From NCBI GenBank assembly GCA_964621445.1, contig CAZUNO010000051.1, positions 1-11,254 of the forward strand: 11,254 nucleotides of DNA. Reading direction: 5' to 3'. Made by a program: the position numbers and the translations under genes. Shown piece after piece: positions 1 to 11,254 of the stretch. The first letter of the stretch is position 1. Each line of letters opens with the position of its first letter. The notes below the pieces were generated by a model. That model did not search any database and was not told the origin of the DNA. It was given only the letters and a program-made list of their open reading frames with translations. Source of the DNA: Candidatus Hadarchaeota archaeon (lineage in GTDB: Archaea; CAYQAE01; CAYVLA01).

Positions 1-2
1 TA

Positions 3-1184
3 GCCCTTGCATTTAGCCATAACATGACCGCGGACAACTCGGACTACTGGATACTTAACGCCGGTAACCCTCACACCTCGGGGCAGGGAATACAAATCGA
101 CAGTCCCCAGTTCGACAAGTACGTGGACGGGGCCTATACATACCTCACCATAACCGATCTAGACGTCCCTGACGAATACACGATGTTCAACGAGAGCGAG
201 GACTGGCTTCTGGCCATTGTGGGAGAGGATGGGCACCCGATACAGGACAACCCGGGAAGAGGATACCTGTTGGGTTATTGGAGCCCATGGATGAAGGCCT
301 TTACCTACGATAACGTCCTGGCCTGGAGGGCATGGAGCCCGGTTATTAACCGTGTATGCCTGGATCGGGATGACGATAACGAGTTCGATGACAAACGCTT
401 GATGGAAGGGGACCACGTTGAGGCAAACAACGGAAACTGGGAACTATCCATTTTCCAGAACGAGACCACGGTCAACCTGACCTTTCACAACACCGATTAT
501 AACTACACCAGATACTACCTCCCCCAGGAGTACGACCTGTCCTCCATACCGGAATCGGCATCCGGACTGTATCATTTCGGGGTGATGAGCAAGATCAATA
601 AGCCCTCGCTCTGGAAGGACTATAAGGTGGTGCTAAGGGATTCCCAGGAGGAGGGTGTCTATGACGAGGCCTATATCTGGAATGGGAGCCAGTGGAACCT
701 CTACCGGCCGGGGATGATTTGGACCGAGGGAGGCAACCAGTGGGTGATTGGTATAGAGGATGACTTCCTGACCCTTACCCGCAACAACCCCATTACCCTC
801 AACGACCTCTCAGGTACCACCAGTTCAAGCCTTATGGTGGAGGGAGATTTCATAGAGATAGATGTTGACTCCGATGGGCCGAGAGAGATATGGCTCACCC
901 TAAATTACGAGGGACGGGAAATCGACAGGACCGTGTTCTCCAGGTCCCAGACAAACTCCTTCCGACAGATGTTCGGTACCTGGGGCAAGCTACGCGAGTC
1001 GAGCAGGGTCTACGAGACCCTTACCCTGGCCGAGGACTGGCTGACGGATACGGTGCAGGCCTCGAGGGCCCATGGTATGTGCGACCTGGCCCAGCAGACC
1101 ATCAAGTTCAACAAGATATACAATTCGGTTATAGAGGACAAGCTGACGGTTGCAGCTTGGGAAAAATCCCAGGGAGGGGGATAA
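3..1184 (+). CDS. 5'-truncated secreted/surface protein, probably the C-terminal part of another large pilin-like protein of the cluster
   Basis: The frame of the 24..1184 ORF stays open to the window edge (GCC CTT GCA TTT AGC CAT AAC ATG = ALAFSHNM), so ATG24 is probably internal. The product is acidic, rich in Trp/Tyr/Asn and has six sequons (NMT, NES, NET, NLT, NYT, NGS). It ends in KLTVAAW...; TAA at 1182-1184 lies 2 nt before the next start. Pilin status is inferred from context only. Confidence 0.8.
   Translation, partial: ALAFSHNMTADNSDYWILNAGNPHTSGQGIQIDSPQFDKYVDGAYTYLTITDLDVPDEYTMFNESEDWLLAIVGEDGHPIQDNPGRGYLLGYWSPWMKAFTYDNVLAWRAWSPVINRVCLDRDDDNEFDDKRLMEGDHVEANNGNWELSIFQNETTVNLTFHNTDYNYTRYYLPQEYDLSSIPESASGLYHFGVMSKINKPSLWKDYKVVLRDSQEEGVYDEAYIWNGSQWNLYRPGMIWTEGGNQWVIGIEDDFLTLTRNNPITLNDLSGTTSSSLMVEGDFIEIDVDSDGPREIWLTLNYEGREIDRTVFSRSQTNSFRQMFGTWGKLRESSRVYETLTLAEDWLTDTVQASRAHGMCDLAQQTIKFNKIYNSVIEDKLTVAAWEKSQGGG
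1173..1180 (+). promoter_or_regulatory. Shine-Dalgarno site for ATG1187
   Basis: GGAGGGGG ends 6 nt before the ATG. Confidence 0.65.
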
Positions 1185-1186
1185 AA

Positions 1187-1285
1187 ATGTGGTTTATTGA
1201 TGACAGAAGAGGCGCGATCTACATATTCTCGGTGGTATTGATAGCGGCCATGTTGGTGGTCCTGGTGGGAGCACTGGTGGCTCTG
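1187..1285 (+). other. Class III (prepilin-type) signal peptide; predicted cleavage after Gly9
   Basis: DDRRG followed directly by 24 uncharged, mostly hydrophobic residues. Confidence 0.75.
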
Positions 1286-4200
1286 GAGAAGACCGTCTCC
1301 GGGAGCATTGCTAACAGGGAGGAGGAGCTCTCCTACTTCCAGTTGGAATCGGTCCGGGCAATGGAGAACAAGATATCCTCGGTCATGAAACTGGACCCCG
1401 GCGGGGACAGTTTGAAGGAGGAGCTTGACCGCACGATTTCGGTGCTGCGAGAACAGGCCGAGGAGAGGGGGATGTGGCAAAATATTAGTTACATCATCGA
1501 CTTTCAGCCCAGTAGCCTGGACCTCAGCCCGCGCAGGGTCTGCTTCGAGGTCACCACCCGATCCCAGGGAAGGATCGCCTACGATGATGACCAGGTCTAT
1601 CTTAACGATATTTTCGTGAATAGCGGATACCTATTCATTAAGAACCGCAAGCTGGAGCTCAGGTTCAGGGTGAGAGGGGATAGCGATGAGGAGCGGGGAT
1701 ACGTGAACGGAGGGGCGGTTTACGCCGGCTCCGACGTGACCATGGCCTCCTCCATGCTGACCGATTACCTCAATATGAGTTCCTGGACCAACGCATCCTC
1801 GGTCTATTCCTACACCGTGGAGCAGCAACCGGGATTGATTACCCTGCGACTGCGAAATGAGACCGAGAAGGTGGCCCTGACCAAGTACCTGTACGTTAAA
1901 CCCGATGAGGTACAGTTCCAGATCAATGTCGAGCCCCAGGTTAGCACCGAGAACAGCGTTTCCTACGGAGTGGGCTTGACACCTAATATTAACGGGCCGG
2001 GGGACGACCAATTCCGGATTGACAACACAACCGGCGGCCAGCTAAATCCCTCCTCCGAGTGGGATAATGCAACCCAGGTTAACGCCAGCTTCCAGGTCCA
2101 GAGGTCCAACTCCTGGGTAGTGGTGTACGACAACGACCCCCAGCCCTACGCTTTTAGCATGATACTGGACGAGGCGGATAGCATGGAGTTCTCCTCCACT
2201 GGGGGGGACGAAATGGTGATGATGGCCCCGGGGAGAAGGGGAAGGTTCATAGTTAACGGGATAATTCGTACCTACAGAACATACTCGGATGCCGTTACCG
2301 ACATGAGAAACCTCAAGAAGCTGGGAAAGCCTCCCTCGGGCAGGTCCAACTACCTGGAACCCCTGGTACTTGCACTAACCATAGATGACCTGTATTTTGA
2401 TCCACCGGCACCAAATGCCAACCAGCGGGTGAGCATGATTGCCGCGGTGGACAACTACGGTACCAAGGACGCCTATGATGTGGTCGTGCATTTCTATGAC
2501 GGTGAACCGCTGGCGGACAGGAGCAATCTTCTAGGGGCCACCAACATATCGACCCTCCTTAACGGAAATACCGAGTTATGTTCAACCACCTGGACCTTCA
2601 GCGAGCCCGGGGTCCATGAGATATATGCCGTGTTGGACCCGGATAACCTGCTGGCCGAGGACCACTCCGATAACGTGGAGCACAGCCCCCTCAAGATATA
2701 CCCCCAGGACGTTGCTAATCACGATGTCTCGGTGGAGGCTCTGCAGATCGACGAGAGAAATCCATCGGACGGCGATGTGGTATCGGTAAGAGGCCTTATC
2801 CACAACTGCGGGAACAGGGAGGAACACGATGTGGTCGTCCGCCTCAAGGTCATAGATGATGCCAACGTTTCACGGAACATAAGTTCAAACATTTTGCCCA
2901 ACCTGCCCATCGATTACTACGTTTCCACATCGATAAGCTTCACATACCAGGACGGGGACCAAAGGGTTAACGTCACAGTCGATCCGGTGGCCAACGAGAC
3001 AAATCTATCCAATAATCACAAGGATGCCCTGATAGGTTCCTCGAGCATTCTCCTGGTCGCCGACGATAACCTGGGTCCCAAGGATGGGACCCTGGGCAGC
3101 ACCTCCACCATCGAGTTCCTCTCCGCTCTTGATGACCCTGCAAAGTATGACGTGTTTCTGTGGTCCGAGGAGGAGAGAGGTGATCCCGGCGTCGACGTGT
3201 TGCTGTTTTTCGATGCCGTGGCCTGGACCTGCGGGGATTACGACGGTCATGACGTGGAGACCAATGATGCCCGGACCCTGGTGGAGTTCGTGGATAGGGG
3301 AGGCCACCTGGTTCTGGAAGGCGAGGACATAGCCTACAGGCACCACCAGAACGCCACCGGTGATCCTGACTTCTTCCTGTGGAACGTGACCAGGAGCCAC
3401 ATAGCTGGTTATTATAATGCAAGCCTCGCTAAAACCGTGCCCTTCGATGATATCAACTTGGATGGAAGGACGGAGAACACCGTACCCCAGCTTAACGTGT
3501 ATACCACCCACCCGGTGATGAATCATGTGCCCAGGGTAATTCCCTCCAACTACACCGCAGCCTATCCGGATGTATTGGTGACCATGGGGTCGGAGCGCCT
3601 GGCGGTTTACGAGGCAGAGGGAGGAAGCGACGTGAATCTCACCGGTACATATTCTCCGGATGGGAGCGGCTTCATTCGTGACTGGTTAATAATCGGGGGG
3701 TATTCGGGATACGATATCGACCATGACTACCTGGGTGGCGAGTCCACGGTGAGGCCCTATGATGGCAGGGTGGATAATGGTGAGACCTGGCAGGTCCACC
3801 ATGATTCCAACAGGCACATCGATTTCAATTCACTTCTATCCCCCAACGATTACGCCACGGCCTATGCCTTCGCCTATGTTTACAGTCCGGAGGACCGGGA
3901 CGCCAAGATGAAGGTTGGTTCCGATGACGGGGTGAAGATATACCTCAACGGAAACATGGTTCACCGCAACCCGGTTTGGAGAGGCGCCAGCCCGGACCAG
4001 GACACGGTAAACGTTCACCTCGACCACGGGTGGAACACGGTGCTGGCCAAGGTCGTGGAGAAAACTGGTCAGTGGGGGCTTTACCTCAGGTTCACGGACC
4101 TCTCCGACCAGCCCATCGAGGACCTGGGCATAGAGCTCCGGGACCCCAGCGGGGCGTTCATGGTCCTTGAGGACTCGGTAAGGTCCAGCGAGTTCAGCTG

Positions 4201-7200
4201 GAACTACGCCCCCTCGGTGGTCTCCAGTCCCGTTTTACACGGGTCCGACGCCTTCCAGAGCAACGGGTATAACAACTTCTCCTACGTATTCCCCTACACC
4301 GTTGGGGAGGGCGTGGATCAATACAAGTACATAGACCTCTGGTTCTACTTCGAGGACTCCGACTCTGACATACTTTTTGCCGTAAAACAGGACGGTTCAT
4401 GGGACCACCGATGGGGTTGGGATGTGGAGTCCACCTACGATGGCTATCCGGATAGCAGGCAGGGAACCACGCTAAACTGCCCATCCGGGGAGTGGAAGCA
4501 CTACCGACTGGACCTGGTGAGCGATCTGGGCCTCACCCCCAGCGGTACCGTTGACGGCATGGGATTCCTGTCTGACAGCAGCGATGTGTATTTCGATCAT
4601 ATCCATCTGGCCAGAAAGGACTCGGGAAAGGCGTCCATGGTGGCCTGGGAGAACGCCACCACGGGGACCAAGGTGGCCTACTTCGCATTTCCGGTCAGGG
4701 TAATCGAGAACCGCACCCGCCGCCTGTTGATAAAAAATGCCATTGACTGGGTTGGCGGAAGGACCCTCAACCGGCCGCCGGTGATAACCATAACCGCGCC
4801 CTCCGGGGCCGAAGTATGGAGCGGGGACCAGAACATAACCTGGTCGGCCAGCGACCCCGACGGGGACACCCTGGATGTCGACCTCTATTACTCGTCCAAC
4901 GGGGGAACGACCTGGATAGAACTGGCCCATGGACTGACCGGGGTCAGTTACTGGACCTGGGATACCACAACCGTTCCCGATGACACCTACCTGGTAAAGG
5001 CGGTGGTGGACGATTCCACGCTTACCGACGAGGATACCTCCGCCAGCTTCGATATAGACAATATAAACGACCCCCCCACGGTCACCGTGACCAGGCCCAA
5101 CGTGGTAATGCGGCTCAGCGGTAACGAGCAGGTGACCTGGACTGCAAGTGATCCAGAGGGCCAACCACTCACCTACGACATACAGTGGTGGGACGGGACC
5201 ACCTGGCACACCATAGTAAGCGATTACACTCCCTCAAACCCTTCCAGCCCCGACTATTACTGGGATACCACCACCATACCGGACGGGGTGGACTACCTGC
5301 TCAAGGTAAAGGCCATGGACGAGGACAACACCGTCGAGGACGTTAGCGACGAGCCCTTCAGCGTGGATAACGATAATCAGGACCCCTCGGTGATATTGCT
5401 GGATCCAAACGGCGGCGAGGAGTGGGCTGGAACCCACACCATAACCTGGGATATGGATGACCCCGATGGGGCCGATGACGGGGACCCTCTGGGACATCCG
5501 TACCGCGACACCCTGACCGCGACCATAGACCTGAACAGCAGCGATGCCGAGTTCAGGGGAGGCTACTCGCCCGACTCGCAGGGATTCATACGGGACTGGC
5601 TGCTGGTAGGTGGATATTCTGGATGCAACATCGACCATGATTACCTGGGTGGCGAGTCCACTATCCTGCCTTGGGCGGGCAAGCTGGATAACGGGAAGCG
5701 ATGGTGGAAGCACCACGATTCGAATACCAGGATTGATTTCAACAGCCTGTTGAGTCCAAACCAATACGCAACCGGCTACGCATTCGCCTACCTATACAAC
5801 GAGGAGGATCGGGACGTAAAGATGAAGGTGGGTTCCGACGACGAGGTCAAGATATATCTCAATGGGAATATGGTCCACTGTTACCCCCATCCAAGGGGTA
5901 CCTCGGGGGTTCAGGACACCGTGGACGTGCACCTGAACCAGGGCTGGAACACGGTGTTGGCCAAGGTATGCGAGCACAGTGGGGGATGGGCCCTCTACTT
6001 CCAGTTCGTTAACATGACGGGGCATCCGGTGACCGACCTCAATATAGCGTTGGCCAAGCCAAACTCATACGATACGGGCAAGCCATACGCCACCGGGGCC
6101 AGGCTGGGCGCTGTGGTTGACCTCACCAACATGAACTGGGACACCACGACCTTCCCCAACGGAAACTACACCGCCAACCTAACGGTGAGCGATGGAAGAG
6201 GGGGCGTCGCCTGGGACGACAGCGACTCCCAGTTTGAGGTCATCAATAACAGGGATCCGGTTGTCGAGGTCATATACCCCAATGGGGAGGAGATCCTCTT
6301 CGGAAACGTTAGCGTGGTTTGGAACGCCACCGATCCCGACGGGGACGAGATGACCTTTGATCTCTATTACAAGCAGGGCACCGGGAGCTGGAACCACATA
6401 ATCAACATAGACAACTCCAGCTGGAGATGGTATCTCTGGGACATCAGCGGCCTTCCCGACTCTCCGCCGGAGTACTACATCAAGGTCGAGGCCAGGGATC
6501 CCTACAGCGGCCTGGGCTGGGACGTATCGGACGATGGATGGTACATAAACAACGCCGATGGCGAGTACGGCGATGGAGGCGGGGGGAACTACACCGGATA
6601 TGGAGACGGCGAGGGAAACATAGGTGGCTCCGGTACCCCGCCCGGATGGGGCGACGGTGACGGTGATGGAACCGGTGACGGGTCGGGTGACGAGGATCCC
6701 GCGGACCGGGAGTCCCTCATAATGCTCACCCAGCCCCTGGGCGGCGAGGAGTGGTCGGGAACCAGGACCGTTAGCTGGGTTCACGATAACTTCGGCACCG
6801 GCCTGGAGTTCGATGTCCTGGCCAGCAAGGACTCCGGCGCTACCTGGACGACCCTGGCCTCGGGTATCACCTCAACATCCTACACCTGGGATACCACGGA
6901 TGACGGCGACTCCAACGATTATCGCATCATGGTCCAGGGCACGGATGACGACGGGAACCAGGACACCGATTCGTCGAGCGATTTCCGGGTCTATAACAAC
7001 GACCTGCCCTCGGTCACCGTGACCTCCCCGAACGGCGGGGAGTGGGTGACCGGGACCCACACCATTACCTGGTCGGCCAGCGATCCCGACGGGGACGGGG
7101 ATAACGACCCGAGCACGCCCTACGACCTGCTGTTCGACGTCTACTACTCGGACAACTCGGGTGCCACCTGGAACCAGATAGGGTCCGATGTAAGCAGCAC

Positions 7201-7939
7201 GAACCTGGACTGGGATACCACCGCCGTAGCCGATGGAGACGATTACCGGGTGCGGGTGGTGGCCAAGGATGGTAATATCAAGGGACATACCGATGTCGAT
7301 ATATCAAACTCCGACTTCCACGTGGATAACTCGAACGAGGCGCCCGATGTAAGCGTTGGCTACCCGAATGGCGGGGAAATGCTCAAGGAAAACATCCCCA
7401 TACAGTGGACGTCAACCGACCCCGACGGGGATACGCTGACGCATTCCATATACTACAGCGATGACGCCGGTAGCACCTGGAATCTCATAGTGGGCGGATT
7501 CACCGATTCGGGGACCGACCATACCTATGACTGGGACTCCACCACCGTTCCCGACGGCACCCAGTACATGATCAAGGTGGAATCCGATGATGGATCGCTC
7601 CAGAACGCCGACATGTCGGACGACATGTTCATTATAGATAACACCGATCCAACGGTAAGCATGGATTCACCCAACAATGATGATCTGGTGAGCGGAGAAA
7701 TTCAGGTCCAGGGAACCGTAAGCGATGCTGGCGGCTCCGGCCTCGACAGGGTCGAGATCTGGGCACGAGGGGCGTTTGAGGGATATGCCACGGTGAGCGG
7801 CAACGATTGGGATTTCTCCCTGGACACAACAACCCTGCCCGAGGATGCCACGGTGACCGTGGAGGCCAGGGCATACGATGGGTCCGGTAACCTGGCAACA
7901 GATTCGATCGAGATAAAGATAGACAACGAGGGTAACTGA
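1187..7939 (+). CDS. Giant (2250 aa) type IV pilin-like multidomain adhesin: class III signal peptide, 2x CARDB, GATase-like, 2x PA14-like, CBM-like, 8 Ig-like domains
   Basis: ATG1187 is in frame with the 890..7939 ORF, follows GGAGGGGG (1173-1180) and lies 2 nt after the upstream stop. N-terminus MWFIDDRRG/AIYIFSVVLIAAMLVVLVGALVAL. Domain motifs are listed separately. No C-terminal TM helix or sorting motif. Confidence 0.9.
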   Translation: MWFIDDRRGAIYIFSVVLIAAMLVVLVGALVALEKTVSGSIANREEELSYFQLESVRAMENKISSVMKLDPGGDSLKEELDRTISVLREQAEERGMWQNISYIIDFQPSSLDLSPRRVCFEVTTRSQGRIAYDDDQVYLNDIFVNSGYLFIKNRKLELRFRVRGDSDEERGYVNGGAVYAGSDVTMASSMLTDYLNMSSWTNASSVYSYTVEQQPGLITLRLRNETEKVALTKYLYVKPDEVQFQINVEPQVSTENSVSYGVGLTPNINGPGDDQFRIDNTTGGQLNPSSEWDNATQVNASFQVQRSNSWVVVYDNDPQPYAFSMILDEADSMEFSSTGGDEMVMMAPGRRGRFIVNGIIRTYRTYSDAVTDMRNLKKLGKPPSGRSNYLEPLVLALTIDDLYFDPPAPNANQRVSMIAAVDNYGTKDAYDVVVHFYDGEPLADRSNLLGATNISTLLNGNTELCSTTWTFSEPGVHEIYAVLDPDNLLAEDHSDNVEHSPLKIYPQDVANHDVSVEALQIDERNPSDGDVVSVRGLIHNCGNREEHDVVVRLKVIDDANVSRNISSNILPNLPIDYYVSTSISFTYQDGDQRVNVTVDPVANETNLSNNHKDALIGSSSILLVADDNLGPKDGTLGSTSTIEFLSALDDPAKYDVFLWSEEERGDPGVDVLLFFDAVAWTCGDYDGHDVETNDARTLVEFVDRGGHLVLEGEDIAYRHHQNATGDPDFFLWNVTRSHIAGYYNASLAKTVPFDDINLDGRTENTVPQLNVYTTHPVMNHVPRVIPSNYTAAYPDVLVTMGSERLAVYEAEGGSDVNLTGTYSPDGSGFIRDWLIIGGYSGYDIDHDYLGGESTVRPYDGRVDNGETWQVHHDSNRHIDFNSLLSPNDYATAYAFAYVYSPEDRDAKMKVGSDDGVKIYLNGNMVHRNPVWRGASPDQDTVNVHLDHGWNTVLAKVVEKTGQWGLYLRFTDLSDQPIEDLGIELRDPSGAFMVLEDSVRSSEFSWNYAPSVVSSPVLHGSDAFQSNGYNNFSYVFPYTVGEGVDQYKYIDLWFYFEDSDSDILFAVKQDGSWDHRWGWDVESTYDGYPDSRQGTTLNCPSGEWKHYRLDLVSDLGLTPSGTVDGMGFLSDSSDVYFDHIHLARKDSGKASMVAWENATTGTKVAYFAFPVRVIENRTRRLLIKNAIDWVGGRTLNRPPVITITAPSGAEVWSGDQNITWSASDPDGDTLDVDLYYSSNGGTTWIELAHGLTGVSYWTWDTTTVPDDTYLVKAVVDDSTLTDEDTSASFDIDNINDPPTVTVTRPNVVMRLSGNEQVTWTASDPEGQPLTYDIQWWDGTTWHTIVSDYTPSNPSSPDYYWDTTTIPDGVDYLLKVKAMDEDNTVEDVSDEPFSVDNDNQDPSVILLDPNGGEEWAGTHTITWDMDDPDGADDGDPLGHPYRDTLTATIDLNSSDAEFRGGYSPDSQGFIRDWLLVGGYSGCNIDHDYLGGESTILPWAGKLDNGKRWWKHHDSNTRIDFNSLLSPNQYATGYAFAYLYNEEDRDVKMKVGSDDEVKIYLNGNMVHCYPHPRGTSGVQDTVDVHLNQGWNTVLAKVCEHSGGWALYFQFVNMTGHPVTDLNIALAKPNSYDTGKPYATGARLGAVVDLTNMNWDTTTFPNGNYTANLTVSDGRGGVAWDDSDSQFEVINNRDPVVEVIYPNGEEILFGNVSVVWNATDPDGDEMTFDLYYKQGTGSWNHIINIDNSSWRWYLWDISGLPDSPPEYYIKVEARDPYSGLGWDVSDDGWYINNADGEYGDGGGGNYTGYGDGEGNIGGSGTPPGWGDGDGDGTGDGSGDEDPADRESLIMLTQPLGGEEWSGTRTVSWVHDNFGTGLEFDVLASKDSGATWTTLASGITSTSYTWDTTDDGDSNDYRIMVQGTDDDGNQDTDSSSDFRVYNNDLPSVTVTSPNGGEWVTGTHTITWSASDPDGDGDNDPSTPYDLLFDVYYSDNSGATWNQIGSDVSSTNLDWDTTAVADGDDYRVRVVAKDGNIKGHTDVDISNSDFHVDNSNEAPDVSVGYPNGGEMLKENIPIQWTSTDPDGDTLTHSIYYSDDAGSTWNLIVGGFTDSGTDHTYDWDSTTVPDGTQYMIKVESDDGSLQNADMSDDMFIIDNTDPTVSMDSPNNDDLVSGEIQVQGTVSDAGGSGLDRVEIWARGAFEGYATVSGNDWDFSLDTTTLPEDATVTVEARAYDGSGNLATDSIEIKIDNEGN
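2369..3037 (+). other. Two tandem CARDB (cell-adhesion Ig-like) domains, about 2369-2700 and 2720-3037
   Basis: Typical pattern: P..P..(N/G)..V.....V/I.N.G......V.V, ending LDPDNLLAE..SDN in the first and VDPVANETNLSNN in the second. Confidence 0.8.
3650..4132 (+). repeat. PA14-like/galactose-binding jelly-roll domain, copy 1
   Basis: FIRDWLIIG...AYAFAYVYSP...GSDDGVKIYLNG...L.HGWNTVLAKV. 161 codons, colinear with 5564-6046. Confidence 0.75.
4157..4609 (+). other. Second type of carbohydrate-binding-module-like beta-sandwich
   Basis: PVLHGSDAF...YKYIDLWFY...GEWKHYRLDL...VYFDHIHL matches the generic CBM jelly-roll pattern (G.W....+.L; +Y+D.I.L) and is aromatic-rich. Confidence 0.55.
5564..6046 (+). 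repeat. PA14-like/galactose-binding jelly-roll domain, copy 2
   Basis: Ungapped alignment to copy 1 at a 1914-nt offset; 110/161 identical residues by manual count. Confidence 0.75.
6554..6700 (+). repeat. Gly/Asp-rich low-complexity linker with GDG repeats
   Basis: ADGEYGDGGGGNYTGYGDGEGNIGGSGTPPGWGDGDGDGTGDGSGDEDP. Confidence 0.85.
7928..7933 (+). promoter_or_regulatory. Probable Shine-Dalgarno site for ATG7942
   Basis: GAGGGT ends 8 nt before the ATG, inside the upstream coding region. Confidence 0.45.
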
Positions 7940-7941
7940 GG

Positions 7942-8070
7942 ATGATCTCCAGACTCAAGAACACATTCCGTTCATTCAGCCGATCCAGAAGGGCGGTCGA
8001 GGTACTGACCGGGAACCTGCTCATGATAATGGTCATGGCGGCGGTGTTCTCCTCCATAGCCTTCCTGGTA
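7942..8070 (+). other. Class III signal peptide; predicted cleavage after Ala18
   Basis: Basic leader ending SRRA, then VEVLTGNLLMIMVMAAVFSSIAFLV. Confidence 0.75.
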
Positions 8071-10155
8071 AAGGGCAGTTCCGACAGGTATGCCGACGCC
8101 CAGGAGAGGCAGATGATCGATTCCCTTTCCAGCCACATCAAGTCCAAGGTCTCGGAGGCCTGGGGTGTTGGGGCCGACGAGGTTCCCCTTGAGCTCCCCG
8201 AGATAATCGGATCGGGGCACTACATCATAGAGACCGATCCCAGCGGCAACTACCTTAGGATCAGAACGGATAGGAGTTCATACAGGATCAGGAGCAGTGG
8301 AATCCAACTAGGGAAGAGGTCCATAAGCAGCAGCCAGACCCATTATATCGGGATCCGAGAGGGCAAGGTGCTCATTGACCCGCCTCCACTGACCGAGATT
8401 TCATTCCCCCTGGACGGGTCCGTTTTCAGCGGCTCCTTCAACCTTAGCTACAGGACCAGCGACACCGCCGAGGAGCATTACATCTACCTTGACGGGTTAA
8501 TGGTTGCAAGCGGGTCGGGAAGCTTCGACGGCTTCCTTTTCAACCCCTCCAGCAGCCCCACAAACATGACCGATGGGACCCACTCAATAACCGTGGTCAC
8601 CGAGAACGATAGCGGCGAGGGTAGCGACACCGTAAGGTTTACCATGGACAGGACGCCGCCCAACGTGAACCTCAACCTGACCCAGATAGATAATCAGAGG
8701 TTGACGCTGACCGTCACCGAGACCCGGCCGGTGGGTAATCGGGTCGAGGCCTATATATTCGTCACCGACGACAAGAACCTGCCCGTGCGTGGGCTGGATA
8801 CGGATAACTTCTACGTATACAACTCCCAGGACGAGCTGGCCAACGGTGGAAGGTTCACCCTCTCCATAAATGCCACTGATGGGCAGAGCAGGATAGATCC
8901 CACCAGTTACCTGATCAAGAGGAACCACTCCAACCTCATCCGGGTAACCAGGTCGAGGGACGACTCCTGGGATAGCAAGGGCTTCAACGGCACCGTGAGT
9001 TTCCAGGCCAACGTCTCGGATATAGCGGGAAACGTACAGACCAGCAGCGAGGTAAGCAAGTCCCCTGTCAGCAGGCCGGTTGAGGTTGGAGCACCTGACA
9101 GGAAGTCGGATCTGAGCCTCATATTCACCAATGACGTATCGGGATCAATGGAGTGGGTCATGTGGAAGGATGAGTACCCAAAGCCCGGGGAGGAATCCAG
9201 GCTTGACTTCATGAAGGCAGCGGTCAAGAGCTTCATTTCAAGGATGTACCCGGAGGACGAGGCGGCTGTATGCAGTTTCACCACCAACTATGCCACGGGT
9301 ATGGAGGAGATCGTGCTGGAAAAGAATTTCACAGCCACGGATACCACTGGTAAAAGCCAGTTATCGACATGCGTTGATGGACTGAGCACCATCGATGGCA
9401 CTCCCCTCTACGATGCCCTTTACCAATCCCTGCTCTGGGTCCGGGAAAGGTCGAAGTTTAAGGCGGTTCTGGTGCTTACTGACGGCAAGGACCTGAACTA
9501 TGCCACCGGAAAGCCCTACAGCACCCGGACCTCGACCGAGGTCATAGACCTGGCCAGGGCGGAGGGCATCCCAATTTACTGCGTCGGCCTGGGGGAGGAG
9601 GACAAGGTGGATGTGAACGTGCTAAACGCCATATCGGAGCAGACGGAGGGCAGGCTCTACCTAGCGCCCACGCCCGAGAAGCTGCAGGAGGCCTACGACC
9701 AGATCGCCGGTGAGCTTCTATCCGGATACCGCCTGACCTACACTCCTGGTTTTTTCATATCCGGGGGGGAGGAGATCAACCTCGTGGTTTACGACGATGA
9801 GGACCGGAGCGGGAAGGAGACCATAATCCTCCCCGAGCCCGAGAACCTTCCACCCCAGGTGACACTGTCCGCTCCCAACGGCGGGGAGGTATGGGAAGAC
9901 CAAGGGACCATCGAGTGGTCGGCCACCGATGATGATGGGGACCCGCTGACATTTGACCTCTACTACAGCGATGATGCGGGAACCAACTGGAACGGGATTG
10001 CATCCGACCTATCGGGAACCGGTCCCGACTATACCTATCTGTGGGACACCTCAGGCCTTCCCGAGGGAGATCAATACAAGGTAAAGGTGGTTGCCGATGA
10101 TGACCAGGCCCAGAGCAGCGATCAGTCGGCATCAGTTTTCGAGATCGATGATTAG
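7942..10155 (+). CDS. Type IV pilin-like protein with Ig-like domains and a von Willebrand factor A (MIDAS) domain
   Basis: 737-aa ORF starting 2 nt after the upstream TGA. N-terminus ...SRSRRA/VEVLTGNLLMIMVMAAVFSSIAFLV. vWA motifs DVSGSM, GTPLYDAL, VLVLTDG, IPIYCVGLG. The C-terminal Ig-like repeat resembles those of the upstream gene. Confidence 0.9.
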   Translation: MISRLKNTFRSFSRSRRAVEVLTGNLLMIMVMAAVFSSIAFLVKGSSDRYADAQERQMIDSLSSHIKSKVSEAWGVGADEVPLELPEIIGSGHYIIETDPSGNYLRIRTDRSSYRIRSSGIQLGKRSISSSQTHYIGIREGKVLIDPPPLTEISFPLDGSVFSGSFNLSYRTSDTAEEHYIYLDGLMVASGSGSFDGFLFNPSSSPTNMTDGTHSITVVTENDSGEGSDTVRFTMDRTPPNVNLNLTQIDNQRLTLTVTETRPVGNRVEAYIFVTDDKNLPVRGLDTDNFYVYNSQDELANGGRFTLSINATDGQSRIDPTSYLIKRNHSNLIRVTRSRDDSWDSKGFNGTVSFQANVSDIAGNVQTSSEVSKSPVSRPVEVGAPDRKSDLSLIFTNDVSGSMEWVMWKDEYPKPGEESRLDFMKAAVKSFISRMYPEDEAAVCSFTTNYATGMEEIVLEKNFTATDTTGKSQLSTCVDGLSTIDGTPLYDALYQSLLWVRERSKFKAVLVLTDGKDLNYATGKPYSTRTSTEVIDLARAEGIPIYCVGLGEEDKVDVNVLNAISEQTEGRLYLAPTPEKLQEAYDQIAGELLSGYRLTYTPGFFISGGEEINLVVYDDEDRSGKETIILPEPENLPPQVTLSAPNGGEVWEDQGTIEWSATDDDGDPLTFDLYYSDDAGTNWNGIASDLSGTGPDYTYLWDTSGLPEGDQYKVKVVADDDQAQSSDQSASVFEIDD
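9109..9720 (+). other. vWA domain with complete MIDAS
   Basis: DxSxS = DVSGS (9133-9147), Thr in GTP (9400), Asp in LTDG (9481). Confidence 0.9.
9844..10152 (+). repeat. Ig-like repeat of the same family as the 4769-7642 array
   Basis: NLPPQVTLSAPNGGEVW...EWSATDDDGDPLTFDLYYSDDAGTNW...WDTSGLPEGDQYKVKV. Confidence 0.85.
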
Positions 10156-10220
10156 TGATGGATATGAGATTTCATGAATCAAACCAGGTAACGCGGAGGA
10201 CGGGATTAAATACGGGTGGT

Positions 10221-10226
10221 AGGTGG
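10221..10226 (+). promoter_or_regulatory. Probable Shine-Dalgarno site for ATG10229
   Basis: AGGTGG just upstream; a second GGTGG lies at 10215-10219. Confidence 0.5.
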
Positions 10227-10228
10227 AG

Positions 10229-10336
10229 ATGAATATATTTCGGGATCATCGTGCCGTCTACATTGTGACCGGAGCTCTGCTGACCACCCTGGTGGTCACC
10301 GCGGGGAGCATACTTACTTACACCCTCATCGCGCCC
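10229..10336 (+). other. Class III signal peptide; predicted cleavage after Ala9
   Basis: DHRA, then a hydrophobic helix ending in Pro+27. Confidence 0.75.
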
Positions 10337-11032
10337 GAGATCGAGAAACGTAAGGATGAGAACAACCTTGACTTGGCCAAGGACTCCCTAATGGATCTTA
10401 ACTCCCATGTCATGGACCTGCTCGCCAAAGGTCCAAAATCCACGGCCATCTTCACCATGGTGGTCCCGGGGGGAGATATATCGGTGGATGAGGATCAGAA
10501 CTCGGTCAGTTACCTGACCAGGACAAAGGTGGATTATAACCCGGGGAGCAAGTCGACGCTGTCGGTAAGCAGGTCGACCAAGGATACCCTGAGCATGGAC
10601 TCCAGCCTCCCCGTGGACCTGGTCTCCAGGTACGACAACATAAAGCCGGGTCAATATACGGTGGTTCTATCCTTTGAGAAGGAGAGGCTGTTCCGTATCG
10701 AGGACTGGACGCTGCACAAGAACACCACCTTCGCGGGCACGGTTAGCTCAAGCACCAGCAACTACTACACCAGCCGCCTGAACGAGACGGCGATCGATTG
10801 GGATATCAACAGGGACGGGGACAAGAATGACGTATGGAGGCTTTACCTCTCCGATCCCAATGAGGATTATATCTTCGACTCTGTGGCCATACACGACGCC
10901 GGGGGAAACCTCCTGGAGGTACTGGAGGAGGGGGACAACTTCCAACTGGGATCAATTCCCATAATGGTCTACAGGGTCAGGGAGCGTTACGTCGTGTTCA
11001 GATACGCCCAAATGAAGATGGTGGTTAAATGA
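10229..11032 (+). CDS. Archaeal type IV pilin-like protein (267 aa) with a C-terminal acidic, possibly Ca2+-binding module
   Basis: ATG10229 follows AGGTGG (10221-10226) and is preferred over GTG10223 because it gives a 9-aa leader like the neighbours: MNIFRDHRA/VYIVTGALLTTLVVTAGSILTYTLIAP, then an amphipathic helix. DINRDGDKND motif at 10802-10831. Confidence 0.85.
   Translation: MNIFRDHRAVYIVTGALLTTLVVTAGSILTYTLIAPEIEKRKDENNLDLAKDSLMDLNSHVMDLLAKGPKSTAIFTMVVPGGDISVDEDQNSVSYLTRTKVDYNPGSKSTLSVSRSTKDTLSMDSSLPVDLVSRYDNIKPGQYTVVLSFEKERLFRIEDWTLHKNTTFAGTVSSSTSNYYTSRLNETAIDWDINRDGDKNDVWRLYLSDPNEDYIFDSVAIHDAGGNLLEVLEEGDNFQLGSIPIMVYRVRERYVVFRYAQMKMVVK
11020..11024 (+). promoter_or_regulatory. Probable Shine-Dalgarno site for ATG11029
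   Basis: GGTGG ends 4 nt before the ATGA start/stop overlap. Confidence 0.5.
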
Positions 11033-11136
11033 GGTTAATGGAGGACCTTAGGGCCATGGACCAGACCATAGCGAACCTACTAATTCTCTTCGTTAGCCTG
11101 GGGGCGCTTTCGTTGGCCATTACCGTAGTGAGTCCT
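11029..11136 (+). other. Class III signal peptide; predicted cleavage after Ala9
   Basis: DLRA, then a hydrophobic helix ending in Pro+27. Confidence 0.7.
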
Positions 11137-11254
11137 CTCCTATCCCGATACGAATCCCAGAACAAGATAAAACAGGCCGAGGCCATAATGACCTCCCTTC
11201 ACAACGAGATACTCAAGGTTCAGGAGGAGCCCCCGGGTTCCAGGAGGAGAATAG
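11029..11254 (+). CDS. 3'-truncated archaeal type IV pilin-like protein, paralog of the preceding gene (not in the ORF track)
   Basis: ATG11029 overlaps the upstream stop (ATGA) and follows GGTGG (11020-11024). Manual translation: MRLMEDLRA/MDQTIANLLILFVSLGALSLAITVVSPLLSRYESQNKIKQAEAIMTSLHNEILKVQEEPPGSRRRI..., open to the window end. Alternative start ATG11038. Confidence 0.85.
   Translation, partial: MRLMEDLRAMDQTIANLLILFVSLGALSLAITVVSPLLSRYESQNKIKQAEAIMTSLHNEILKVQEEPPGSRRRI

What the first reader, a model, noticed from the sequence alone, without database searches (positions are those of the whole stretch)
1..11254. Candidate archaeal type IV filament tip-adhesin cassette: every visible N-terminus is a prepilin, two of them carrying large adhesin payloads
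Seen: four consecutive, tightly coupled genes start with class III-type leaders; one carries lectin-like/CARDB/Ig domains and the next a MIDAS vWA domain. Known: archaeal pilins and archaellins are processed by PibD/FlaK-type peptidases and are usually small. In bacteria, modular minor pilins with vWA or lectin modules (Streptococcus sanguinis PilB and PilC) and vWA proteins such as PilY1 and TadG act at the pilus tip. Inference: this is an archaeal counterpart, a minor-pilin complex displaying both glycan-binding and metal-dependent protein-binding adhesins. I know of no characterised archaeal example with this architecture.
Basis: partly seen in the sequence, partly recalled or inferred. Interest (0 to 1): 0.85.

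Follow-up and report, generated by a model that had tools for sequence, protein, structure and literature searches.

The report
Archaeal pilus adhesin-pilin gene block
This stretch of an uncultured Hadarchaeota-like archaeon is the accessory half of its only type IV pilus gene cluster, and it encodes pilin-like proteins, two with very large sticky domains, that probably make the pilus adhesive.

Summary
The window is a whole contig with five co-directional, tightly coupled genes. g2 (2250 aa), g3 (737 aa), g4 (267 aa) and g5 (cut at the 3' end) each start with a 9-18 residue charged leader. The leader ends in R-[G/A] and is followed by 20 or more hydrophobic residues, which is the published archaeal prepilin rule. 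CARDB and Ig domains in g2 and a vWA domain with a complete MIDAS motif in g3 are confirmed. The "lectin-like" call is not.

The window joins, by an exact 55-nt overlap, a contig carrying the genome's only A24 prepilin peptidase. In two relatives one locus runs ATPase, two TadC-like genes, PilA pilin, p375, g1, g2; other contigs there carry g3, g4, g5, a propeller protein and the peptidase.

The N-termini of g3, g4 and g5 are related to each other and to PilA above a same-genome control. The N-terminus of g2 is not. AlphaFold models of g3 and g4 show a 60-65-residue N-terminal helix followed by beta domains.

Tip location, complex formation and ligands remain inference. Archaeal pilus loci with minor-pilin sets and large adhesin-like proteins are already in print. 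Unchecked notes of this scan report similar giant vWA pilin-like operons on other archaeal DNA.

The parts
3..1184 (+). g1. This is the C-terminal 393 aa of a protein of about 800 aa. Full-length relatives have an N-terminal hydrophobic helix and an alpha/alpha-toroid domain.
   Evidence: Searches give the ORF. It has no Pfam or NCBIfam hit. Relatives of 798-800 aa are 55-61% identical. The relatives' N-terminus reads ...YEAG|VAIMIVLV, and SQHop_cyclase-like hits have E 3e-7.
1187..7939 (+). g2, a 2250-aa pilin-like giant surface protein.
   Evidence: It has a single N-terminal hydrophobic segment at residues 13-31 and 30 N-glycosylation sequons. Only 3 homologues turned up, of 1597 to 2250 aa.
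1187..1285 (+). g2 leader (9 aa, ending R-G) plus the hydrophobic helix (residues 10-33).
   Evidence: R-G|[A/Q]IY is kept in 5 of 5 relatives while the leader varies. Homology to pilin N-termini is not shown: the best hhalign score is 19.7 against a control maximum of 19.4.
2375..2674 (+). CARDB domain of g2.
   Evidence: Pfam PF07705, E 4.5e-12, 46.5 bits. PDB 2kut_A matches at E 1.8e-4.
3629..4171 (+). Jelly-roll-like domain of g2, copy 1 (the 'lectin-like' module).
   Evidence: It is 66% identical to copy 2. It has no Pfam hit. The best PDB sequence hit is 7oa8_A, the PilC minor pilin, at E 0.12, which is not significant. The Atlas gives leads at 0.88-0.89, including a RhaB_D2/PA14 cluster.
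5543..6064 (+). Jelly-roll-like domain of g2, copy 2.
4772..7936 (+). Array of Ig-like repeats (Big_7 / Kre9_KNH type). It is interrupted by jelly-roll copy 2 and by a Gly/Asp-rich linker.
   Evidence: Big_7 E 3.7e-17. Big_7 and Kre9_KNH match the piece 4772-5380. The sequence was read.
7942..10155 (+). g3, a 737-aa pilin-like protein with Ig-like spacer domains, a vWA domain and a C-terminal Ig domain.
   Evidence: The AlphaFold model has a helix at 16-76, strands at 81-145 and confident Ig-like domains at 150-383. Twelve homologues are 57-100% identical.
7942..8169 (+). g3 leader (18 aa, ending R-R-A) and the long N-terminal helix.
   Evidence: Conservation starts at RS[KR][KR][AGS]|[VI]EVLTGN in 12 of 12 relatives. 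hhalign scores are 28.5 to the g5 family and 25.6 to the g4 family, against a control maximum of 20.9.
9121..9702 (+). vWA domain of g3. The MIDAS DxSxS motif lies at nt 9133-9147.
   Evidence: PF00092, 30.4 bits against a cut-off of 23.8. D398, S400, S402, T487 and D514 are invariant in 12 of 12. The only PDB sequence hits at E <= 0.01 are 7b7p_A and 7ba2_A, Streptococcus sanguinis PilB.
9853..10071 (+). Big_7 Ig-like domain of g3.
   Evidence: E 3.9e-7.
10229..11032 (+). g4, a 267-aa pilin-like protein. An alternative GTG start lies at 10223.
   Evidence: The AlphaFold model has pLDDT 82.7, with a helix at 3-67 followed by all-beta domains. It is paralogous to g5 (hhalign probability 98.3%, E 1.7e-14). 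Its N-terminus aligns with PilA (score 34.9 against a control maximum of 19.4). Only 7 hits were found in 1.84 billion representatives.
11029..11254 (+). g5, the first 75 codons of a pilin-like protein of about 160 aa. It continues on contig C74.
   Evidence: The 55-nt exact overlap C51 to C74 is, and the continuation is visible. The g4-family profile hits it at E 1.6e-8 in a six-frame scan of the genome. Nine homologues have 160-162 aa.

Best explanation
The window is the accessory-pilin and adhesin block of the organism's single type IV pilus locus, which is closest to the euryarchaeal PilA-based 'clade 2 / system 2' kind.

Proposed mechanism:
1. g2, g3, g4 and g5, together with p375 and g1 just upstream in relatives, are inserted into the membrane by their N-terminal hydrophobic helix.
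2. Their short leaders are cut after R-[G/A] by the FlaK/PibD-type A24 peptidase encoded two genes downstream of g5.
3. The ArlI/PilB-like ATPase and the split TadC-like platform load them into a filament built mainly of the small PilA pilin.
4. Their payloads are bulky: the CARDB, jelly-roll and Ig array of g2, and the Ig stalk plus MIDAS vWA of g3. They therefore most likely sit in the first turns of the filament (a priming or tip complex) and make it adhesive. The small g4 and g5 act as adaptor subunits.

Shown here: gene order, domain content, motif conservation, N-terminal homology of g3, g4 and g5 to PilA, and the helix-plus-beta models.

Inferred: cleavage, incorporation, tip position and ligands.
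For: 1. Locus membership.
- The genome (96% complete) has one T2SSE ATPase hit, one adjacent pair of T2SSF genes and one A24 peptidase hit.
- C51 joins C74, and C5 joins C57, by exact 55-nt overlaps.
- This places g5 two genes upstream of the peptidase, and the ATPase next to the two TadC-like genes and a PilA pilin.
- Relatives G001 and G003 carry ATPase, TadC x2, an Ig/TPR protein, an HTH protein, PilA, p375, g1 and g2 on one contig. They carry g3, g4, g5, the propeller protein and the peptidase on another.

2. Published processing rule. It requires G/A/S at -1 and a charged residue at -2, with the site in front of the hydrophobic domain (PMC4371748, passages of section 8). The rule is met by g2 to g5, and is conserved in 5 of 5, 12 of 12, 10 of 11 and 9 of 9 relatives.

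3. Peptidase. It has Peptidase_A24 plus Arc_PepC_II domains, and the WSD...RREV and GGAD motifs.

4. Homology.
- The g4-family profile, scanned over the whole genome in six frames, finds only four places at E <= 1: g4, g5 (1.6e-8), PilA (0.0115) and the g3 N-terminus (0.63).
- hhalign scores for the first 130 residues are g4-g5 83.8, g4-PilA 34.9, g3-g5 28.5, g5-PilA 26.5 and g4-g3 25.6.
- Against 71 unrelated R/K-G/A/S signal-anchor N-termini of the same genome, the maxima are 19.4, 17.5 and 20.9.
- PilA itself passes TIGR02537 at 35.8 bits against a cut-off of 20.

5. Fold. The g4 model (pLDDT 82.7) has a helix at 3-67 followed by beta domains. The g3 model has a helix at 16-76 followed by strands at 81-145. 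Nine of the 50 listed VIA rows for g4 are type IV pilins or pseudopilins aligned to residues about 14-130. They are weak, at Z 3.5-4.4.

6. vWA. The g3-family profile hits only the vWA module of the modular pilin PilB of S. sanguinis in the PDB at E <= 0.01 (E 3.6e-4). The two share DxSGSMxW...ESRxD.
Against: - None of g2 to g5 matches Pilin_N (PF07790) or TIGR02537, even at relaxed thresholds.
- g2's N-terminus is not distinguishable from generic signal anchors by profile comparison.
- From the relatives, g1 has A rather than K/R at -2.
- Structural matches of g4 to solved pilins are below the level the tool calls meaningful (Z under 5). Foldseek found none.
- The vWA part of the g3 model has low confidence, pLDDT 35-60.
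- The controls are single sequences, while the in-locus comparisons used small alignments. This may favour the latter.
- Four to six bulky subunits cannot all occupy one tip position, so some may sit elsewhere or not in a filament at all.
- There are no expression, proteomic or microscopy data.
Confidence: 0.6

Rival explanations
1. Bindosome-like or pseudopilus display. The proteins are cut by the A24 peptidase and held together by their N-terminal helices. They form only a short, membrane-rooted stub that presents the adhesin and binding domains at the cell surface, and they are not part of a long pilus.
For: Class III signal proteins with large functional domains that use a type IV machine as a base are documented for the Sulfolobales bindosome. 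They are proposed to be widespread (PMC13705601, sections 18 and 21 read). There are several bulky subunits in a row, which is hard to fit at one tip. In G001 an ABC transporter is inserted inside the locus.
Against: A small PilA-type pilin that could build a long filament sits in the same locus. The payloads are adhesin-type domains (vWA, CARDB, Ig arrays), not solute-binding proteins. The ABC genes are absent from the same place in G003.
Confidence: 0.2
2. Uncleaved signal-anchor accessory proteins. The N-terminal helices stay as membrane anchors. The proteins form a base, stator or envelope-spanning collar for the pilus, like ArlF/ArlG of the archaellum or the proposed membrane-anchoring role of bacterial TadG. 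Alternatively they are simply anchored adhesins co-regulated with the pilus.
For: There are no hits to Pilin_N or TIGR02537. g1 lacks the charged -2 residue. [quoted passage not shown] Makarova et al. cite a hypothesis that TadG anchors the pilus (PMC4858521, section 16 passage).
Against: In four families conservation begins exactly at the R/K-G/A/S pair, while the residues before it vary in length and sequence. This is what a processing site predicts and a plain anchor does not. The N-termini of g3, g4 and g5 are homologous to PilA's.
Confidence: 0.13
3. Ordinary Sec-secreted or anchored surface proteins that lie next to pilus genes by chance and have no functional link to them.
For: The loose N-terminal motif occurs in 73 of 2796 ORFs. 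Giant Ig-rich surface proteins are common in this genome, according to earlier unchecked scan notes.
Against: The order of the genes from p375 to the peptidase is kept in the two relatives with long contigs, at 52-65% protein identity. The genes are coupled by 2-nt spacers or a 4-nt overlap. The genome's only A24 peptidase closes the operon.
Confidence: 0.04

Closest known systems
Streptococcus sanguinis PilB, a bimodular type IV minor pilin with a vWA module (PDB 7b7p, 7ba2; PMC8179133, passages read)
   Same: An N-terminal pilin-type helix carries a vWA domain with a complete MIDAS. PilB is the only PDB sequence hit of the g3-family profile at E <= 0.01 (E 3.6e-4), and the two share DxSGSMxW...ESRxD. 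In PilB the bulky module is argued to force a tip position.
   Different: PilB is bacterial, with a G|FxxxE-type leader and N-methylation, and is 426 aa in the crystal construct. g3 has an archaeal R-A|VE site and three Ig-like spacer domains between the pilin part and the vWA domain, plus a C-terminal Ig domain. Shared ancestry of the fusion is not shown.
Streptococcus sanguinis PilC, a modular pilin with a concanavalin A-like lectin module (PDB 7oa8; PMC9934059, search listing and abstract only)
   Same: The idea is the same: a pilin carrying a carbohydrate-binding beta-sandwich. 7oa8_A is the top PDB sequence hit of g2's jelly-roll profile.
   Different: That hit has E 0.12 and is not significant. 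g2 is 2250 aa with many more domains. Its lectin nature and its pilin homology are both untested or unsupported.
Euryarchaeal 'clade 2' (Makarova, Koonin & Albers 2016, PMC4858521) or 'system 2' (Sivabalasarma & Albers 2026, PMC13705601) PilA-based type IV pili, for example Haloferax volcanii PilB3/PilC3 with PilA1-6
   Same: The ATPase has a long N-terminal extension (T2SSE at residues 299-550 of 675) and a PilB3_C-like tail of 26.2 bits. The locus has a PilA-family pilin with an RA|IT site, several further pilin-like genes and large adhesin-like proteins.
   Different: [quoted passage not shown] The 2026 paper gives that as a system 1 trait, although the 2016 paper says many clade 2 loci have two. 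Here the peptidase and the whole pilin set lie in one locus. vWA-bearing pilin-like proteins are not mentioned in either paper's main text.
Epd pilus of Methanococcus maripaludis (clade 1 / system 1)
   Same: [quoted passage not shown]
   Different: Epd substrates have Gln at +1 and a tiny major pilin without a globular domain. Here +1 is A, V or M, and the major pilin candidate is a 143-aa PilA type.
Bacterial TadG and PilY1
   Same: Both are vWA-containing proteins tied to type IV filaments. A beta-propeller protein is also encoded in this locus.
   Different: No Tad-type or PilY1-type (Neisseria_PilC) family was hit in g3 or in the propeller protein. The propeller is of FG-GAP/PQQ type, is fused to a long coiled-coil, and shows no signal sequence.
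Sulfolobales bindosome (class III signal sugar-binding proteins on a Bas machine)
   Same: Large functional proteins with class III signals use a type IV machine as a scaffold.
   Different: The payloads here are adhesin-type domains, not solute-binding proteins. The ATPase matches BasE only weakly, at 194 bits against a cut-off of 1000.

Membership tests
Archaeal class III (prepilin-type) signal peptide, substrate of PibD/FlaK-type A24 peptidases | G/A/S at -1 and a charged residue at -2, with the site in front of the hydrophobic domain (PMC4371748, section 8) | tested here: met
   g2 has RG|A, g3 RA|V, g4 RA|V and g5 RA|M. The pair is conserved in 5 of 5, 12 of 12, 10 of 11 and 9 of 9 relatives. 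From relatives, g1 has EAG|V and does not meet the -2 rule.
Archaeal class III (prepilin-type) signal peptide, substrate of PibD/FlaK-type A24 peptidases | A short leader, then a hydrophobic stretch of about 20 residues as the only membrane segment | tested here: met
   Leaders are 9, 18, 9 and 9 residues. Each protein has a single N-terminal hydrophobic segment.
Archaeal class III (prepilin-type) signal peptide, substrate of PibD/FlaK-type A24 peptidases | A cognate A24 peptidase is present | tested here: met
   The only A24 hit in the genome lies two genes downstream of g5. The same holds in G001 and G003. Both Asp motifs are present.
Archaeal class III (prepilin-type) signal peptide, substrate of PibD/FlaK-type A24 peptidases | Match to curated N-terminal models (Pfam Pilin_N PF07790; NCBIfam TIGR02537) | tested here: not met
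   g2 to g5 have no hit at E up to 1-10. The neighbouring PilA passes TIGR02537 at 35.8 bits.
Archaeal class III (prepilin-type) signal peptide, substrate of PibD/FlaK-type A24 peptidases | The leader is actually removed | not testable with these tools
   This needs a cleavage assay or N-terminal mass spectrometry. No SignalP or FlaFind was available.
Type IV pilin fold | An N-terminal helix of about 50 or more residues followed by a beta-sheet domain | tested here: met
   The g4 model has a helix at 3-67 followed by strands (pLDDT 82.7). The g3 model has a helix at 16-76 followed by strands at 81-145. g2 and g5 were not modelled.
Type IV pilin fold | Structural similarity to solved pilins | tested here: inconclusive
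   Nine of the 50 listed rows are pilins or pseudopilins, at Z 3.5-4.4. Foldseek gave nothing. The N-terminal module of g3 was barely tested, because Ig domains filled the lists.
Type IV pilin fold | Sequence homology to a bona fide pilin | tested here: met
   Met for g3, g4 and g5 only: with the control. Not met for g2, whose score of 19.7 compares with a control maximum of 19.4.
Modular type IV pilins (PilB/PilC type) | A pilin module followed by a domain not specific to pilus biology | tested here: met
   g3 has a helix-plus-beta module, then Ig domains, vWA and Ig. g2 has an N-terminal helix, then CARDB, jelly-rolls and an Ig array. The pilin module of g2 rests on the motif only.
Modular type IV pilins (PilB/PilC type) | Bacterial N-terminal methylation motif (G|F/M-x-x-x-E; InterPro IPR012902) | tested here: not met
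   The archaeal-type sites have Glu at +2 in g3 and none at +5 in any of g2 to g5. This was read. The motif itself is recalled, apart from its mention in PMC8179133.
Modular type IV pilins (PilB/PilC type) | A lectin module | tested here: inconclusive
   There is no Pfam hit. 7oa8_A matches at E 0.12. Atlas leads are below 0.9.
vWA domain with MIDAS | DxSxS, Thr and Asp metal-coordinating residues | tested here: met
   PF00092 scores 30.4 bits against a cut-off of 23.8. D398, S400, S402, T487 and D514 are invariant in 12 of 12. Structural matches to vWA chains are 4rck_B at Z 10.2 and 4fx5_A at Z 8.4, on a low-confidence part of the model.
Archaeal T4F 'system 2' (PMC13705601, section 12) | An ATPase with an extended N-terminus and sometimes a C-terminal region | tested here: met
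   T2SSE lies at residues 299-550 of 675. PilB3_C lies at 590-659, at 26.2 bits against a cut-off of 27.
Archaeal T4F 'system 2' (PMC13705601, section 12) | [quoted passage not shown] | tested here: not met
   There are two adjacent TadC-like genes in G000, G001 and G003. The 2016 paper nevertheless reports two tadC genes in many clade 2 loci.
PilY1 / TadG | A PilY1 C-terminal propeller family, or a Tad-type pseudopilin N-terminal family | tested here: not met
   Neither family is among the Pfam hits of g3 or of the propeller protein.

The most novel reading that the evidence does not exclude
These archaea may use their only type IV pilus as a display scaffold. It would be primed by a multi-subunit tip of five or six modular pilins, each with a different payload: an alpha/alpha-toroid domain, a 2250-aa CARDB/jelly-roll/Ig array, and a MIDAS vWA domain. 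That would make g2 by far the largest pilin subunit known; the largest in the bacterial survey of PMC8179133 has 860 residues. The pilin-vWA fusion may also share ancestry with that of Streptococcus PilB, meaning an ancient fusion or one exchanged between domains.
Probability: 0.15. Interest if true: 0.75.

Novelty: new variant of a known kind. Interest (0 to 1): 0.47.

Why it matters
If the reading holds, the 'graft an adhesin onto a pilin' strategy worked out in Streptococcus also operates in archaea, with several very large payloads at once. It would also give a concrete, complete 14-gene locus (motor, platform, major pilin, six pilin-like proteins, peptidase) from an uncultured sediment lineage. 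That locus could be moved into a tractable euryarchaeon to ask how bulky subunits pass through the assembly machine and the S-layer, and what these cells attach to. For annotation, it shows that archaeal pilin-like N-termini missed by Pilin_N and TIGR02537 can be recognised from locus context plus family-specific profiles.

Tried and rejected
- Co-fold of the G001 homologues of g4 and g5, mature parts, with alignments: score 0.01 against a mark of 0.32. The tool's verdict was 'no answer'. It is not used as evidence either way.
- Foldseek of the g4 model against the PDB: best E 0.034, all antibody-like two-domain beta proteins. Rejected as uninformative.
- Foldseek and VIA on the 737-residue g3 model: the lists were filled by tandem Ig/FN3 proteins and a few vWA chains, so the N-terminal module was not really tested.
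- ESM Atlas on g3 residues 1-385: no usable hit.
- phmmer of g2 and g3 against PDB sequences: only a CARDB-like NMR structure for g2, and nothing for g3 as a single sequence.
- g4-family profile against PDB sequences: the best hit was 8fk7_A, deposited as 'Flagellin' and aligned to profile positions 1-42, at E 0.057, not significant.
- hhalign of whole alignments A1 against A2: probability 3%, E 0.013.
- Weak Pfam hits to DUF7266 (g3 N-terminus, E 0.035), DUF7311 (G001 g4, E 0.012) and DUF7287 (p375, E 3e-5, below cut-off). I could not establish what these families are, so they are not used.
- Loose class III regular expression over the genome: too permissive at 73 of 2796, and it missed three of the four window genes for technical reasons. 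It serves only to show that the motif alone is weak.
- I first read the G000 peptidase as frameshifted. It is instead interrupted by a run of 10 N.
- I considered a split PilY1 (g3 vWA plus the downstream propeller). I dropped it because the propeller is of FG-GAP/PQQ type, has no signal sequence, and carries a long coiled-coil.
- Szabo et al. 2007 (the FlaFind paper) is not held. The rule was taken from PMC4371748 instead.

Full report
WHAT IS IN THE WINDOW

The window is a complete 11,254-base contig, C51 of an 89-contig, 3.2-Mb assembly that is 96% complete. It carries five genes on the + strand:
- g1, 3..1184, cut at its 5' end.
- g2, 1187..7939, 2250 aa. The listed ORF starts at 890, but the conserved start is the ATG at 1187, behind a GGAGGGGG box.
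- g3, 7942..10155, 737 aa.
- g4, 10229..11032, 267 aa.
- g5, 11029 to the contig end.

Spacers between genes are 2, 2 and 73 nt, followed by a 4-nt overlap.

Pfam results:
- g2: CARDB (E 4.5e-12) and Big_7 (E 3.7e-17).
- g3: VWA (30.4 bits, cut-off 23.8) and Big_7.
- g1, g4, g5: nothing.

The MIDAS residues D398, S400, S402, T487 and D514 of g3 are invariant in all 12 family members found. The two 'lectin-like' jelly-roll copies of g2 are 66% identical to each other. They have no Pfam hit. Their best PDB sequence hit is the lectin-bearing pilin PilC of S. sanguinis, but at E 0.12. The Atlas gives only sub-threshold leads to a RhaB_D2/PA14 cluster.

THE N-TERMINI

g2, g3, g4 and g5 have leaders of 9, 18, 9 and 9 residues. 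Each leader ends in R-G or R-A and is followed by 20 or more hydrophobic residues. That stretch is the only hydrophobic segment in each protein.

This fits the published archaeal rule: G/A/S at -1, a charged residue at -2, and the site in front of the H-domain (PMC4371748, section 8 passages). Known sites listed there, such as RA|VS, KA|IS and RA|QI, look the same.

In every family the alignment is variable before the pair and conserved from it onwards:
- g2: 5 of 5.
- g3: 12 of 12.
- g4: 10 of 11.
- g5: 9 of 9.

The motif by itself is weak. A loose version marks 73 of 2796 ORFs in this genome.

CONTEXT, THE DECISIVE CHECK

The genome has one T2SSE ATPase hit, one adjacent pair of T2SSF genes and one A24 peptidase hit. 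All of them lie at contig ends. Exact 55-nt overlaps join C51 to C74 and C5 to C57.

Downstream of the window lie, in order:
- the rest of g5;
- a 756-aa FG-GAP/PQQ-type propeller protein with a coiled-coil tail;
- the peptidase (Peptidase_A24 plus Arc_PepC_II).

The apparent frame break in the peptidase gene is a run of 10 N.

In relatives G001 and G003 one contig reads:
- a large CARDB-like protein;
- a 108-aa protein;
- the ATPase;
- two TadC-like genes;
- an 841-845-aa Big_1/TPR protein;
- an HTH protein;
- a PilA pilin;
- (in G001 only) three ABC transporter genes;
- p375, with the site RRA|FEL;
- g1, 798-800 aa;
- g2.

Another contig in each relative reads g3, g4, g5, the propeller protein, the peptidase, and then unrelated genes. 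Contigs in all three assemblies break inside the repeat-rich g2 or g3. p375 and the 5' half of g1 are missing from this assembly.

PilA passes TIGR02537 at 35.8 bits against a cut-off of 20. It is just under the Pilin_N cut-off. The window is therefore the accessory block of the organism's only type IV filament locus.

HOMOLOGY AND FOLD

g4 is rare, with 7 hits in 1.84 billion representatives. Its distant relatives are pilin-like proteins that sit beside Pilin_N pilins and, at one locus, a gene that reads like an A24 peptidase (by eye, no family search), in small 'same domain' genomes.

A g4-family profile scanned over the whole genome in six frames finds exactly four places at E <= 1:
- g4 itself;
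- g5, E 1.6e-8;
- PilA, E 0.0115;
- the g3 N-terminus, E 0.63.

Profile-profile scores over the first 130 residues:
- g4-g5: 83.8 (probability 98%).
- g4-PilA: 34.9.
- g3-g5: 28.5.
- g5-PilA: 26.5.
- g5-p375: 26.5.
- g4-g3: 25.6.

As a control, 71 unrelated signal-anchor N-termini of the same genome reach at most 19.4, 17.5 and 20.9 against the g4, g5 and g3 profiles. g2 (19.7) and g1 do not exceed that control.

AlphaFold models:
- g4 (pLDDT 82.7): helix at 3-67, then beta domains.
- g3 (pLDDT 69): helix at 16-76, strands at 81-145, confident Ig-like domains at 150-383, and a low-confidence vWA domain.

Nine of the 50 listed VIA rows for g4 are type IV pilins or pseudopilins aligned over residues about 14-130. 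They score only Z 3.5-4.4. Foldseek found nothing.

The g3-family profile hits only S. sanguinis PilB, the vWA-bearing modular pilin, among 177,635 PDB sequences at E <= 0.01 (E 3.6e-4).

HOW IT MOST LIKELY WORKS

The proteins are inserted by their N-terminal helix. They are trimmed by the in-locus FlaK/PibD-type peptidase and fed by the ATPase and the split platform into a PilA filament. Their bulk places them in the first turns of the filament, where the vWA domain and the g2 array act as adhesins and g4 and g5 act as adaptors. I give this reading 0.6.

Rivals:
- A short bindosome-like display stub (0.2).
- Uncleaved anchors acting as base or collar proteins (0.13).
- Unrelated surface proteins (0.04).

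Cleavage, incorporation, tip position and ligands are all inferred.

COMPARISON WITH WHAT IS KNOWN

The locus is closest to the euryarchaeal PilA-based clade 2 / system 2 kind. The ATPase has a long N-terminal extension and a PilB3_C-like tail. The two platform genes, however, are given as a system 1 trait in the 2026 paper.

Both papers already describe minor-pilin sets, large adhesin-like proteins and class III proteins with binding domains in such loci. In their main texts, vWA appears only as a regulator domain or as bacterial TadG, or not at all. 'Hadarchae' does not occur in the 2026 paper.

Modular pilins have been characterised only in bacteria. PMC8179133 does not contain the word 'archaea'. 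Of the 9 papers that hold both 'modular pilin' and 'archaea', I opened one (PMC10191384), whose passages on modular pilins concern bacteria, and I saw only the listing and abstracts of the other seven listed, which also concern bacteria. Supplements of these papers were closed and may list such proteins.

This scan's earlier, unchecked notes report 20 findings that hold the search words; the eight shown are pilin-like gene clusters, most with giant vWA or lectin payloads, from DPANN, Thermoplasmata and Alkanophaga genomes. None is on DNA like this window.

VERDICT

This is a real, conserved accessory-pilin and adhesin block of a type IV pilus locus. It is a new variant of a known kind and of moderate interest.

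Noticed in passing
window 11200-11254, with L025 (G000:C74) 1-55; also L027 (C5) with L026 (C57): Contigs C51 and C74, and contigs C5 and C57, overlap by exactly 55 nt. The assembly graph therefore links the window to the peptidase contig, and the ATPase contig to the TadC/PilA contig. No contig overlaps the window's 5' end.
   Followed up: yes
L025 (G000:C74) 2995-3004: A run of 10 N lies inside the A24 peptidase gene and makes it read as two overlapping ORFs. It is a gap, not a frameshift. The relatives have an intact 263-264-aa gene.
   Followed up: yes
L025 (G000:C74) 319-2589: A 756-aa protein lies between g5 and the peptidase, and it is kept in G001 and G003. It has an N-terminal FG-GAP/PQQ-type propeller and a charged coiled-coil half of about 350 residues. 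No signal peptide or clear membrane segment is visible. Its role and its location (inside or outside the cell) are unexplained.
   Followed up: partly
L026 (G000:C57) 4272-6779: An 835-aa protein directly after the two TadC-like genes combines Big_1/Invasin_D3 Ig domains with C-terminal TPR repeats. It has no predicted membrane segment, which is an odd mix of 'outside' and 'inside' domains. It is conserved in G001 and G003.
   Followed up: no
L024 14565-16967 and L022 15464-17860 (full-length g1 homologues): Full-length g1 has an alpha/alpha-toroid domain (SQHop_cyclase / prenyltransferase-like, E 3e-7) behind an N-terminal helix. Its putative site, EAG|V, lacks the charged -2 residue.
   Followed up: partly
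L022 10280-14141 (G001:C76): Three ABC-transporter genes are inserted between PilA and p375 in G001 but not in G003.
   Followed up: no
window 3014-3631 (g2 residues 610-815): This stretch resembles a Rossmann-like or DUF4350-like module, but the hit is weak (E 0.082). An earlier unchecked scan note (e1-354230) reports an expanded GATase1-like surface family in this genome. A possible link was not tested.
   Followed up: no
window 4772-7936: The Ig-like repeats of g2 and g3 carry Asp-box-like S-x-D-x-G-x-T-W motifs (recalled name). A Gly/Asp-rich linker lies at about g2 residues 1790-1840.
   Followed up: no
G000:C1:219403-219879, C29:2615-2896, C12:75614-76096: Three further copies of the g2 jelly-roll-like domain (26-37% identity) occur in other genes of the genome.
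   Followed up: no
L008-L012 (G024, G009, G020, G029): In small-genome archaea, distant g4-like proteins lie beside Pilin_N-type pilins and, in L011, beside a gene that reads like an A24 peptidase (by eye; no family search was run on it). The g4/g5 family is therefore an old, fast-evolving pilin-like family that Pfam and NCBIfam do not capture.
   Followed up: partly
L038 (G000:C13:30239-30325): The only other weak Pilin_N-like match in the genome (E 0.065) lies in a 372-aa ORF. It was not examined.
   Followed up: no
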